Sequence record: PQ471515.1
From: Escherichia phage Turkey3
DNA length: 64,000 nucleotides
Direction: 5' to 3' (one strand)
Shown here piece by piece: positions 33,359-35,498 of this stretch (within the stretch, counting starts at the first letter, position 1; each line of letters opens with the position of its first letter). The notes under the pieces are model-generated. The model saw only the letters and a list, made by a program, of their open reading frames with translations, did no database searches and was not told the origin of the DNA. The translations under genes and the position numbers were made by a program.

Positions 33359-33628
33359 ATGAATTACAAACATATACAATTCACTTATATGGAATTATTT
33401 AAATTACACCATAATCACAGAAGTACTAACACAATTAATAAAAATGCGTTTACTCATAAATTATGGTCAAATTACCTAGAAGAATTACGTGAGTATTTTA
33501 TTGATACTGAAATTTTCATTAATGGAAAAAAACGAAAGATACTTAGAGTCGATAGTTTTGGTGGTAGATTAGTACTTTCATATAAATTTGATAACGACTT
33601 ATTCTCTGTTGATTTGGTGAATATATGA
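33359..33628 (+). CDS. QFTYK-family small protein
   Basis: MNYKHIQFTYMELF N-terminus. Confidence 0.5.
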   Translation: MNYKHIQFTYMELFKLHHNHRSTNTINKNAFTHKLWSNYLEELREYFIDTEIFINGKKRKILRVDSFGGRLVLSYKFDNDLFSVDLVNI

Positions 33629-33885
33629 ATTATAAAGATTTCCAATTAACATTCAAGTGCATTCGTGACCTAGCAAATAAAAATAATAGTATATTTTTAG
33701 AAGATACATGTATTGAAATGATTAATATTGTGCGTGAGAGGATTAAAGAAAAATTCAGTACTGTAATTATCAACAACGATCATGCAGAATTTTCAGATAT
33801 AATCATTAAGCTCGATGGTAAAGTAGAGGTACAGTTCTACACTGATTTTGGATTTACGAGTGTTCCTCTGGAGATATTCCCTTGA
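33625..33885 (+). CDS. QFTYK-family small protein
   Basis: MNYKDFQLTFKCI. Confidence 0.5.
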   Translation: MNYKDFQLTFKCIRDLANKNNSIFLEDTCIEMINIVRERIKEKFSTVIINNDHAEFSDIIIKLDGKVEVQFYTDFGFTSVPLEIFP

Positions 33886-34193
33886 AATTAAATTTGAATG
33901 ATGTTCAATTCACGTATAAAAATATATATGGTTTGTATGACATGTATCTTTTTAGTGGGAAGATTGGTGAACATGTCGAATCAAAAGAATCACCATTTAT
34001 TAATAATTACTATGATTACTTAGATTCTATTGCTGAATATATAAAAAAGAATTACAGTACTTACACTGATGGAGATGACATATTTGAATATTCAGGTGTA
34101 AAATCTTATCAAGGTATTATCCATGTAGAATTTCTTGAAAAAACTGATAGGGAATTTATGGAGATTAAAGTTATGAAGTTAACGGACCTATAA
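33882..34193 (+). CDS. QFTYK-family small protein
   Basis: MKLNLNDVQFTYKNIYG. Confidence 0.5.
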   Translation: MKLNLNDVQFTYKNIYGLYDMYLFSGKIGEHVESKESPFINNYYDYLDSIAEYIKKNYSTYTDGDDIFEYSGVKSYQGIIHVEFLEKTDREFMEIKVMKLTDL

Positions 34194-34203
34194 GAGTTGA
34201 CAT

Positions 34204-34515
34204 ATGAATATTAATGATATACAATTCACATACAAATTTTTGTATATCCAATACGCTACGGTTGATGCTGGAGAATATCTCTACGGTGAAATCTATCGTT
34301 CGGTATGGATAAAGTTTTTGGATGAATTACATGAATATTACCATGATTTGTGTATAGTTCGTGATAATAAAATATACAAATTCCGCGATATTGTTAGTCA
34401 TAGCGGTAAGCTACGATTGGAATTAAGTACTGATAGTGATGTTGATTGGATTGGTGTAAATTTACTGGAGTTGGAGAATGAAAAACAACTTAAAGGAAAT
34501 ACAAGTATTTTATAA
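34204..34515 (+). CDS. QFTYK-family small protein
   Basis: MNINDIQFTYKFLY. Confidence 0.5.
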   Translation: MNINDIQFTYKFLYIQYATVDAGEYLYGEIYRSVWIKFLDELHEYYHDLCIVRDNKIYKFRDIVSHSGKLRLELSTDSDVDWIGVNLLELENEKQLKGNTSIL

Positions 34516-34762
34516 ATTCTTATACTTGTCATATGTAAAAGATGAGTACTATGAAAGTGTGTATTATTTTTTATGGCAACATTACCGTACTATAGTAAGA
34601 GATTTATATATAGGAAAATCTATCATATCCAATGGTGAAAAATGTATATGTACTGATGTTGTTAGTTTTAATGGTTCTTTAACACTGTGTTTCAGATGCG
34701 ATAATAATAGTGGGTCATTTTCATTAAACGTATATCAATTAGAAGGAATAAATTTTGAATAA
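34478..34762 (+). CDS. QFTYK-family small protein
   Basis: MKNNLKEIQVFYKFLY. Confidence 0.5.
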   Translation: MKNNLKEIQVFYKFLYLSYVKDEYYESVYYFLWQHYRTIVRDLYIGKSIISNGEKCICTDVVSFNGSLTLCFRCDNNSGSFSLNVYQLEGINFE

Positions 34763-34955
34763 ATGTCCATATTGCAACAGTACTCAATTAGCTCGTTTCC
34801 GTTTAGATTCAGACTGGGCCACTGGTGCTGGTGATTTCTTTCCCATCAATGATGATTCGGAATACACTGAAGAACAGCACAAAGATTTTGATAAATCATG
34901 GCGACCTGACATTGAGTGCATTTATTGCCTTAATTGTGAGCGTATCCATGACTAA
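34755..34955 (+). CDS. zinc-ribbon small protein
   Basis: CPYC...CIYCLNC (two CxxC pairs), 66 aa. Confidence 0.5.
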   Translation: MNKCPYCNSTQLARFRLDSDWATGAGDFFPINDDSEYTEEQHKDFDKSWRPDIECIYCLNCERIHD

Positions 34956-35211
34956 AGCTGAACTGATCGTGCAAACACTGCGTTTATTGAGGGATTTAGA
35001 TATCCCACGCATGGATGTGAAACTTGAAGATATCTACATTGAATCTCTTAGTGAAGATTACACCGATACCGTAATGATGCTGAATGACGTGCTTTATCGT
35101 ATAGATAGCATCAGTCGTCTTGGAAGTACTTTAAAAGTGAATATGGAAAGAGTTGATAAACTTTACGTACATATATATAGTCTACCCATTTCAATATTAA
35201 ACTATAGATGA
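34948..35211 (+). CDS. hypothetical protein
   Basis: ATG 34948 overlapping previous stop; MTKAELIVQTL...; track start 34825. Confidence 0.4.
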   Translation: MTKAELIVQTLRLLRDLDIPRMDVKLEDIYIESLSEDYTDTVMMLNDVLYRIDSISRLGSTLKVNMERVDKLYVHIYSLPISILNYR

Positions 35212-35498
35212 ATATTATATTGATACAAAAAACATATGCGTTATTGATGAAAGAATATACTAATACTTATGATGAAAAGTGCAGTGCAAATCATAATATG
35301 TATAAATTCATTACTCAAGAGTACAGGGATTATATATATGCTGCGTTAGTTGGTAGATATTTCAGTACTAAAAAACGTAAAGAACTCAAAGTTGTAGATA
35401 TTACTTTTTTCTACAACGGGCATATAACAATTCATGGTGTGGAACATAATTCACAAATATATCGTAACTACTCATCCAATGAGGTAACATTTTTATGA
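35208..35498 (+). CDS. hypothetical small protein (QFTYK-like)
   Basis: MNIILIQKTYALLMKEY. Confidence 0.45.
   Translation: MNIILIQKTYALLMKEYTNTYDEKCSANHNMYKFITQEYRDYIYAALVGRYFSTKKRKELKVVDITFFYNGHITIHGVEHNSQIYRNYSSNEVTFL

What the first reader, a model, noticed from the sequence alone, without database searches (positions are those of the whole stretch)
33359..35498. Second tandem family of about 90-100 aa proteins with an N-terminal [D/E]-[I/F/V]-Q-F-T-Y-K motif
Five consecutive genes (33359, 33625, 33882, 34204, 34478) begin MN(Y/I)K.IQFTY..., M..NDVQFTYKNIYG, MNINDIQFTYKFLY or MKNNLKEIQVFYKFLY, and 35208-35498 is a looser relative. Further about 90-aa genes of similar length and predicted beta-rich C-termini continue at 38066, 39976, 41449-42548, 44365 and 45367. 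This looks like another lineage-specific expansion of small proteins of unknown function, distinct from the FQ-S family.
Basis: seen in the sequence. Interest (0 to 1): 0.45.

Follow-up and report, generated by a model that had tools for sequence, protein, structure and literature searches.

The report
Small-protein paralog array in jumbo phage
Five neighbouring genes plus one nearby gene in a giant E. coli phage (Asteriusvirus) are true but ancient duplicates encoding small, fast-evolving, non-virion proteins of unknown function; this is a real but fairly ordinary lineage-specific phage family, possibly host-takeover or counter-defence binders.

Summary
The window is an Asteriusvirus jumbo coliphage, 99.4% identical to vB_Ec-M-J.

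**Family A.** Genes 33359, 33625, 33882, 34204 and 34478 are homologous. Evidence: shuffle z-scores up to 12.6, an N-terminal motif in exactly these 5 of 138 genes (0.05 expected), hhalign up to 99.8%, and all five hitting phrog_21004. Gene 35208 is a genuine distant sixth member (merged-profile hhalign 74-87%; its ortholog's predicted structure matches at TM 0.70/0.74).

**Distribution and fold.** By sequence the family occurs only in Asteriusvirus-type phages: 17 representatives among 1.84 billion proteins, with weak syntenic traces in Klebsiella phage RaK2. There are no Pfam, NCBIfam, PADLOC or PDB sequence matches. AlphaFold predicts a helical hairpin followed by a 4-5-strand beta meander.

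**Evolution.** Paralogs are only 16-27% identical. Copy number in front of a conserved zinc-ribbon gene is 1, 3 or 5 in different relatives. Alleles are mosaic, and dN/dS is 0.2-0.6 against 0.04-0.15 for neighbouring enzymes. phAPEC6 orthologs are absent from the virion proteome.

**Other 90-aa genes.** The genes at 39976, 41449, 41706, 44365 and 45367 form a second, sequence-distinct family (B). It has a similar helix-plus-barrel layout; 45367 has a Tudor/SH3-like barrel.

**Function** is inferred only: most likely diversifying intracellular binders.

The parts
33318..33342 (+). Intrinsic-terminator-like hairpin (9-bp stem, 5 G-C pairs, T-run) directly upstream of the first array gene and its Shine-Dalgarno sequence (AAGGGG).
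   Evidence: One search found the hairpin. It is conserved, with loop and stem variation, in vB_Ec-M-J, ph0011, slurp01, A4 and JNE01.
33359..33628 (+). Family A member 1 (89 aa, MNYKHIQFTYMELF..., pI 9.3).
   Evidence: (phrog_32291 3.5e-29; phrog_21004 4.7e-6).
33625..33885 (+). Family A member 2 (86 aa, MNYKDFQLTFKCIR...). It is the most divergent of the five and its start overlaps the previous stop (ATGA).
   Evidence: Four-member core HMM E 8.4e-6. hhalign 86% to 33882. phrog_35943 and phrog_21004 1.2e-4. No ortholog found in A4 or JNE01.
33882..34193 (+). Family A member 3 (103 aa, TTG start, MKLNLNDVQFTYKNIYG...). It has a longer insert between helix 1 and helix 2.
   Evidence: 96% to 34204; phrog_21004 4.8e-35.
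34204..34515 (+). Family A member 4 (103 aa, MNINDIQFTYKFLY...). This is the modelled representative. Its 3' end overlaps the next gene by 38 nt.
   Evidence: AF2 model with pLDDT 83.2 and pTM 0.74: helices 3-18 and 25-45, then strands 49-53, 56-66, 69-75 and 82-86, a short helix, and a low-confidence tail. phrog_21004 3.2e-44.
34478..34762 (+). Family A member 5 (94 aa, MKNNLKEIQVFYKFLY...).
   Evidence: hhalign 99.8% to 34204. SW z 12.6. 100% identical to slurp01 but only 60% to ph0011, i.e. a mosaic allele.
34755..34955 (+). Conserved 66-aa CxxC...CxxC zinc-ribbon gene. It is not a family member but serves as the positional anchor that ends the tandem run.
   Evidence: 85-98% identical across Asteriusvirus relatives. 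71% in RaK2 and 40% in a metagenome contig.
34948..35211 (+). 87-aa gene, a tentative very distant family A relative.
   Evidence: Family HMM E 2.9e-3 among 138 genes. hhalign 17% with score 21.9 against null 10.3. The slurp01 and A4 counterparts hit at 1.6e-4 and 1.2e-3.
35208..35498 (+). Family A member 6 (96 aa, MNIILIQKTYALLM...), a distant member that lies after the zinc-ribbon gene.
   Evidence: Merged-profile hhalign 74-87% over 80 columns. HMM E 1.1e-5. Ortholog structure match at TM 0.70/0.74. Its own phrog_28826.
41953..42548 (+). Two adjacent ~100-aa genes (41953-42255 and 42252-42548) with marginal links to family A.
   Evidence: HMM E 2.7e-3 and 1.6e-3. They are recruited only under lenient iteration with inclusion at 1e-3. 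Tentative.
39976..40287 (+). Family B member (103 aa). This is a hypervariable slot: 33-40% identity to most relatives.
   Evidence: hhalign 76% to 44365. Family B HMM. dN/dS 0.36-0.69.
41449..41960 (+). Family B members 41449-41709 (86 aa) and 41706-41960 (84 aa).
   Evidence: hhalign 86.5% and 45% to 44365, both above the null maximum.
44365..44616 (+). Family B hub member (83 aa).
45367..45636 (+). 89-aa protein linked to family B. It was modelled as one long helix plus a Tudor/SH3-like five-strand barrel.

Best explanation
Shown. Genes 33359-34762 plus 35208 are a paralogous family (here called family A) of small (86-103 aa), soluble, mostly acidic proteins. They are encoded by an Asteriusvirus jumbo coliphage and are not found in the virion.

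Predicted. Each protein has an N-terminal helical hairpin whose first helix carries the conserved signature N2-x2-D5-[ILF]-Q7-F-T9-Y10-K-x-L-Y. A 4-5-strand antiparallel beta meander follows, with a conserved S65 and an invariant G68 at a hairpin turn. The segment between the helices (residues about 18-33) is hypervariable and rich in indels.

Shown. The array arose by old duplications and evolves by birth-and-death: 1, 3 or 5 copies in front of a conserved zinc-ribbon anchor, replacement of individual slots, and recombinational shuffling of alleles. Purifying selection is relaxed relative to neighbouring enzymes.

Inferred. The proteins are made inside the infected cell as part of the long same-strand block of small genes. 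That block also holds RNA ligase/PNK tRNA repair, Dam methylase, a Ser/Thr phosphatase and PTH2. I propose that they act as stoichiometric binders of host or defence-system macromolecules. The conserved scaffold would present variable surfaces, so each paralog or allele would cover a different or rapidly changing target.
For: - Homology and motif significance.
- Protein-level rather than DNA-level constraint. DNA repeats are limited to the motif codons.
- Real genes under selection: Shine-Dalgarno sites and dN/dS 0.18-0.61, below 1.
- Lineage restriction.
- Fold.
- Conservation map.
- Copy-number variation and slot replacement.
- Mosaic alleles.
- Not in the virion: phAPEC6 orthologs gp384c-gp389c are absent from the 62-protein virion table of PMC7247149.
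- Acidic and soluble.
- Context of counter-defence-type enzymes. PMC7247149 notes the anti-Prr potential.
- General precedent, from abstracts only: fast-evolving, variably present small phage genes often antagonise host defences, and such genes can be amplified in tandem (10.1101/2023.04.06.535777, PMC9391042, PMC13096335).
Against: - There is no functional evidence at all: no match to any characterised protein, anti-defence or otherwise.
- dN/dS is below 1 everywhere, so positive selection is not demonstrated.
- Paralogs are ancient (16-27% identity), so this is not a recent arms-race amplification.
- Expression timing is unknown. The promoter scan was no better than chance (90 found against 90.5 expected), and a conserved terminator sits immediately upstream.
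Confidence: 0.55

Rival explanations
1. They are nucleic-acid- or RNA-polymerase-binding regulators of phage gene expression. Small beta-barrels of the Tudor/KOW/Sm type bind RNA polymerase (CarD, the Mfd RID, the PcrA C-terminal domain), nascent RNA or DNA. The phage depends on host RNA polymerase plus its own sigma factor.
Against: Most members are acidic (pI 4.4-5.9), which fits poorly with generic nucleic-acid binding. The Tudor-like match was obtained for 45367 (family B-linked), not for family A, whose PDB hits were only helical hairpins. Regulators of core expression would be expected to be conserved and single-copy, not variable in number and replaced slot by slot.
Confidence: 0.15
2. 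They are immunity, antitoxin or superinfection-exclusion-type proteins. The array of diversified small binders would neutralise phage-borne or competitor toxins, by analogy with tandem immunity-gene arrays of polymorphic toxin systems.
For: The arrangement is a tandem array of divergent small paralogs with variable copy number and allele shuffling, and the proteins are small, acidic and soluble.
Against: No toxin-like gene is recognisable next to the array: the neighbours are a 218-aa acidic-tailed protein, a zinc ribbon and a 57-aa membrane protein. There are no PADLOC or Pfam toxin/antitoxin matches.
Confidence: 0.1
3. They are phage-internal helpers that act only on phage proteins, for example assembly chaperones, scaffolds or adaptors for the very complex virion.
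For: Jumbo phages of this clade have complex virions with many fibres (PMC7247149 abstract). Small helical-plus-beta proteins can act as chaperones.
Against: The orthologs are not in the virion proteome. They lie far from the structural gene block, within an enzyme and small-ORF region. Chaperones of conserved structural proteins should co-vary with their clients rather than be lost or replaced between close relatives.
Confidence: 0.08
4. The similarity is a chance or compositional artefact of an AT-rich genome, or the ORFs are not real genes.
For: The genome is 31-36% G+C, and several pairwise comparisons are individually insignificant (for example 33625 against 34478, z 0.7).
Against: The shuffle tests, the reversed-profile null, an independent PHROG profile, orthologs under purifying selection in several relatives examined here (of about 35 records that hold a match) and confident AF2 models all contradict it.
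Confidence: 0.01

Closest known systems
PHROGs phrog_21004, phrog_32291, phrog_35943 and phrog_28826 (all 'unknown function')
   Same: These profiles already hold the orthologs. phrog_21004 matches all five tandem genes.
   Different: PHROGs splits the family into four clusters with no function, fold or evolutionary description. Here they are unified as one family with a sixth member, 35208.
Tudor/SH3-like small beta-barrel domains (Tudor, PWWP, chromo, KOW; bacterial CarD-RID and PcrA-CTD)
Fast-evolving phage 'accessory genes' and tandemly amplified counter-defence genes (for example T4 tifA amplification, PMC9391042; accessory-gene screens, 10.1101/2023.04.06.535777)
   Same: The genes are small and variably present between conserved flanking genes. 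They evolve faster than their neighbours, sit in tandem, and lie among counter-defence-type enzymes.
   Different: The paralogs are ancient (16-27% identity), not recent identical amplifications. No defence system, target or phenotype is known, and there is no homology to any characterised anti-defence protein.
Small syntenic proteins of Klebsiella phage RaK2 (for example H6X4R2, 89 aa; ORFs at L010 4669-5001, 5198-5467 and 5467-5736)
   Same: They occupy the same position next to the conserved zinc-ribbon gene. There is a structure match at TM 0.61/0.69 and weak HMM hits at E 7e-5 to 2e-5 in a database of 69 ORFs.
   Different: The N-terminal motif is degenerate (KKIEFIQMTCKVIF). The hits are not significant in database-wide searches. 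I did not establish which RaK2 ORF corresponds to H6X4R2.

Membership tests
Family A (this paralog family; equals phrog_21004 and its satellite clusters) | N-terminal signature M-N-x-x-D-[ILF]-Q-[FLV]-[TF]-[YF]-K-x-L-Y within the first 16 residues. | tested here: met
   Present in 33359, 33625, 33882, 34204 and 34478, and in no other of the 138 genes. 35208 has the degenerate form IQKTY.
Family A (this paralog family; equals phrog_21004 and its satellite clusters) | Full-length profile similarity beyond the motif (W35, Y38, L39, S65, G68, L70, L87, L90). | tested here: met
   (motif-deleted test). For 33625 the link runs mainly through 33882.
Tudor/SH3-like small beta-barrel fold | Five-strand, strongly bent antiparallel barrel that superposes on solved Tudor, SH3 or KOW domains. 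| tested here: inconclusive
Any Pfam, NCBIfam or PADLOC family, or a PDB sequence relative | Score above the curated threshold, or a significant E-value. | tested here: not met
   Best hits are far below the cut-offs and inconsistent between members.
YolD-like family (a UniRef name attached to one member of the 38066 cluster) | A match to the Pfam YolD-like model (PF08863 from my own knowledge). | tested here: not met
   No YolD hit was listed even at the E <= 10 setting, where HMMER's filters drop most matches above about 0.1, for P0171 or for 38066. The name sits on a 534-bp 'Actinomadura' contig.
Phage counter-defence 'accessory gene' class | Variable presence or replacement between conserved flanking genes, and faster evolution than the neighbours. 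| tested here: met
   Copy number is 1, 3 or 5, with slot replacement, between the 218-aa gene and the zinc-ribbon gene. dN/dS is 0.18-0.61 against 0.04-0.15.
Phage counter-defence 'accessory gene' class | Demonstrated inhibition of a host defence system or binding to a host target. | not testable with these tools
   This requires genetics or biochemistry.
Virion structural proteins | Detection in purified particles. | tested here: not met
   phAPEC6 orthologs gp384c-gp389c are absent from the virion proteome table in PMC7247149.

The most novel reading that the evidence does not exclude
The whole 33-46 kb block would be a repertoire of about 15 small 'helix + small beta-barrel' binder proteins: family A, family B and several singletons. 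They would derive from one ancestral module and work as a diversifying, recombination-shuffled arsenal against variable E. coli defence or host factors, each paralog or allele neutralising a different target. This would be a phage-side analogue of polymorphic immunity-gene arrays, built on a Tudor/SH3-like scaffold not previously tied to counter-defence.
Probability: 0.2. Interest if true: 0.6.

Novelty: new member of a known kind. Interest (0 to 1): 0.3.

Why it matters
More than 80% of the genes in Asteriusvirus and other RaK2-like jumbo phages have no known function, and these phages are being considered for therapy. Defining a coherent family of six or more members gives a concrete, testable set of candidates for host-takeover or counter-defence factors. 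The family has a signature motif, a predicted fold, a conserved genomic anchor, and clear birth-and-death and mosaic evolution. It also gives a clean example of how small-gene arrays turn over in giant phages. By itself, a lineage-specific ORFan paralog family in a jumbo phage is expected rather than surprising.

Tried and rejected
1. An early four-sequence HMM pulled in ORF 1051-1362 of the upstream family (E 8.6e-4). This was rejected: with the 34-sequence profile E is 0.74 and hhalign gives 0.3%, and the match is only 'YKMLY' against 'YKFLY'.
2. A second 'IQFTY' at 53453 is an out-of-frame chance occurrence inside the dCMP deaminase gene.
3. I tested whether the N-terminal conservation could be an RNA or DNA element. 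Synonymous positions vary, DNA repeats are only 72-79% identical over 29 nt, and there are no Rfam hits.
4. A sequence link between families A and B was not supported (<1% probability), even though 45 of 435 pairwise profile scores exceed the null 99th percentile.
5. The weak Pfam 'Phage_Gene33' hit to 35208 (E 0.008) was seen in only 2 of 19 members and lies below the cut-off.
6. The sigma-70 promoter scan was uninformative (90 found against 90.5 expected).
7. The search for related loci with the family alignment failed because no stretch was conserved enough, so I used the zinc-ribbon anchor instead.
8. The afdb50 fold library was unavailable.
9. The literature searches found no description of this family.
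Full report
**Identity of the window.** The region 33000-36000 is 99.4% identical to Escherichia phage vB_Ec-M-J (378 kb) and 84-98% identical to other members of the genus Asteriusvirus (121Q, PBECO4, phAPEC6, slurp01 and others). The window is therefore part of a RaK2-like jumbo myovirus genome. It has low G+C (31-38%) and nearly all genes lie on the + strand. The six ORFs named in the finding have the same coordinates as annotated 'hypothetical protein' CDSs in vB_Ec-M-J.

**Check of the observation.**
- Within-window BLASTP links 34204-34478 (E 9e-7), 33359-34478 (2e-6), 33359-34204 (3e-5) and 33882-34204 (5e-4).
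- Smith-Waterman scores against 500 shuffles give z = 10.2-12.6 for the triad 33359/34204/34478, 8.9 for 33882-34204, 4.2 for 33625-33882 and 5.3 for 35208-33359. Removing the first 16 residues leaves the triad (z 6.6-12.2), 33625-33882 (4.1) and 35208-33359 (4.2) significant, so the similarity is not confined to the N-terminus.
- The motif [ILFVM]Q[FLV][TF][FY] lies in the first 16 residues of exactly the five tandem genes among 138 window genes. Shuffling gives 0.05 on average and a maximum of 2.
- Profile-profile comparison with ortholog alignments gives 99.7-99.8% for the triad, 90-96% for 33882 and 69-86% for 33625. All of these exceed the maximum score (25.4) of a reversed-profile null computed over 435 pairs.
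- Independently, phrog_21004 matches all five genes (3e-44, 5e-35, 5e-6, 1e-4, 2e-4).
- Codons within the motif differ at synonymous sites (ACT/ACA/ACG, TAT/TAC, TTC/TTA), so the constraint acts on the protein. The only DNA repeats are these motif codons, at 72-79% identity.

**Is 35208 a member?** Shallow pairwise profiles gave under 15%. After merging all family A sequences (34 in total, including divergent metagenomic ones), hhalign against the 35208 ortholog group gives 74-87% probability over 80 columns, with a null score of 13.5. The family HMM scores 35208 at 1.1e-5 among the window genes. In phage JNE01 the gene at the 35208 position starts '...KDIEFTTKVLY' and scores 3.6e-8. The BFVD model A0A1C3S6P8 was verified to be PSLUR01_00329, the slurp01 ortholog of 35208. 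It superposes on the 34204 model with TM 0.70/0.74 and rmsd 2.5 A over 90 columns. I therefore count 35208 as a distant sixth member.

**Distribution.**
- A word-seeded search of 5.8 billion clusters returned only 32 proteins, all orthologs from E. coli or Salmonella Asteriusvirus genomes.
- An exhaustive HMMER scan of 1.84 billion representatives returned 17.
- tblastn of 50,697 phage records found 35 Asteriusvirus records plus two chance hits.
- There is no Pfam, NCBIfam, PADLOC or PDB sequence match.
- Using the conserved 66-aa zinc-ribbon gene (34755-34955) as a positional anchor, I recovered the syntenic locus of Klebsiella phage RaK2. There, ORFs next to the anchor give weak family hits (E 7e-5 to 2e-5 in a database of 69 ORFs). 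An 89-aa RaK2 protein, H6X4R2, matches the model at TM 0.61/0.69. The module probably predates the Asteriusvirus/RaK2 split, but this is only suggestive.

**Evolution.**
- Paralogs within the window are only 16-27% identical, so the duplications are old.
- Positional orthologs exist in vB_Ec-M-J, ph0011 and slurp01, but the alleles are mosaic. 34478 is 100% identical to slurp01 and 60% to ph0011. 33359 is 84% identical to ph0011 and 57% to slurp01. 34204 is 96% identical to slurp01 and 59% to ph0011.
- In phage A4, four of the five slots hold sequences less than 40% identical to any window gene, while the fifth is 96% identical.
- JNE01 has three genes before the anchor. A metagenomic relative (L007/L008) has one, with further family hits after the anchor. 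RaK2 has one or two weak ones.
- dN/dS is 0.18-0.61 for family A against 0.04-0.15 for the neighbouring methylase, cytidylyltransferase, RNA ligase, kinase, phosphatase and ligase genes. This indicates purifying but relaxed or heterogeneous selection.

**Context and expression.** A terminator-like hairpin at 33318-33342 directly precedes the Shine-Dalgarno sequence of the first gene and is conserved in five relatives. Within the array the genes overlap or abut (ATGA overlaps, a 38-nt overlap between 34204 and 34478), which suggests coupled translation. The sigma-70 promoter scan was at chance level, so timing is unknown. The phAPEC6 orthologs (gp384c-gp389c) are absent from the published 62-protein virion proteome (PMC7247149). 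The proteins lack transmembrane or secretion features and are mostly acidic. The surrounding block encodes a Dam methylase, RnlA-type RNA ligase and polynucleotide kinase (an anti-PrrC-type tRNA repair pair, noted for phAPEC6 in PMC7247149), a Ser/Thr phosphatase, PTH2 and DNA ligase.

**Interpretation.** What is shown: a real, ancient paralog family of six members, restricted to this lineage, non-structural, with a predicted alpha-hairpin/beta-meander fold and birth-and-death and mosaic evolution. What is inferred: the proteins are intracellular binders whose conserved scaffold presents variable surfaces to host or defence targets. This rests on their size, charge, variability, position and general precedent for phage accessory genes (abstracts), not on any direct evidence. 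The rivals are an RNA polymerase or nucleic-acid regulator, an immunity-type array, and an assembly helper. They are weighed in the rival section. The artefact hypothesis is excluded.

**Verdict.** The finding is correct and modestly extended: the sixth member is confirmed, the second family is delimited, and the fold, distribution and dynamics are described. It is a new, undescribed sequence family of a familiar kind, the jumbo-phage ORFan paralogs. PHROGs already clusters it piecemeal as unknown function. Interest is moderate to low unless a function is found.

Noticed in passing
window 35942-35992, compared with L001 15008-15931 and L002 16984-18468: The window has only 49 nt between genes 35640-35942 and 35992-36729. 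At the same site vB_Ec-M-J carries an annotated 'endonuclease' CDS (924 nt) and ph0011 carries a 1485-nt CDS. This looks like an insertion hot spot, possibly for a homing endonuclease.
   Followed up: partly
window 37370-37375, compared with L001 17331-17909: A 579-nt gene is present between the orthologs of 37068-37370 and 37375-38064 in vB_Ec-M-J, ph0011, slurp01 and A4. It is missing from the window.
   Followed up: partly
window 36739-37023 and 39976-40287: Two hypervariable single-gene slots. 36739 is only 45% identical to the vB_Ec-M-J ortholog although its flanks are 87-100% identical. 39976 is 96% identical to vB_Ec-M-J but 33-40% to the other relatives, which also carry an extra 84-aa gene upstream.
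   Followed up: partly
window 39976-45636: A second small-protein family (B): 39976, 41449, 41706, 44365 and 45367, perhaps also 43815. One modelled member has a long helix plus a Tudor/SH3-like barrel. It is also restricted to Asteriusvirus and has no Pfam match.
   Followed up: yes
window 34755-34955 and 45647-45874: Two small CxxC...CxxC zinc-ribbon proteins. The first is highly conserved (71% identity in RaK2, 40% in a metagenome contig) and makes a useful synteny anchor. The second is annotated as a DnaJ-like or chaperone protein in relatives.
   Followed up: partly
window 1-26000: Several large paralogous families of 100-200-aa proteins lie upstream, with many BLASTP pairs at E 1e-10 to 1e-38.
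   Followed up: partly
window 38326-39468 and 40291-41223: An RnlA-type RNA ligase and a polynucleotide kinase/phosphatase (a tRNA-repair pair) are separated by three small genes. A terminator-like hairpin lies at 41227-41253, after the kinase gene.
   Followed up: no
P0030 and P0031 (Salmonella phages SD-6_S16 and SD-15_S21): There are chimeric or truncated ORFs. P0030 joins the N-terminal two-thirds of a 33625-type protein to pieces of a 33882-type protein. This is either a deletion between adjacent paralogs or an assembly or frameshift artefact in those records.
   Followed up: no
cluster of window 38066-38329 (P0171): One member of the 90% cluster sits on a 534-bp contig labelled Actinomadura adrarensis and is named 'YolD-like family protein' in UniRef. 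No YolD Pfam match was found, and the contig is probably phage contamination.
   Followed up: yes
window 53453: A further 'IQFTY' occurs out of frame inside the dCMP deaminase gene (53178-53660). It is a chance occurrence.
   Followed up: yes
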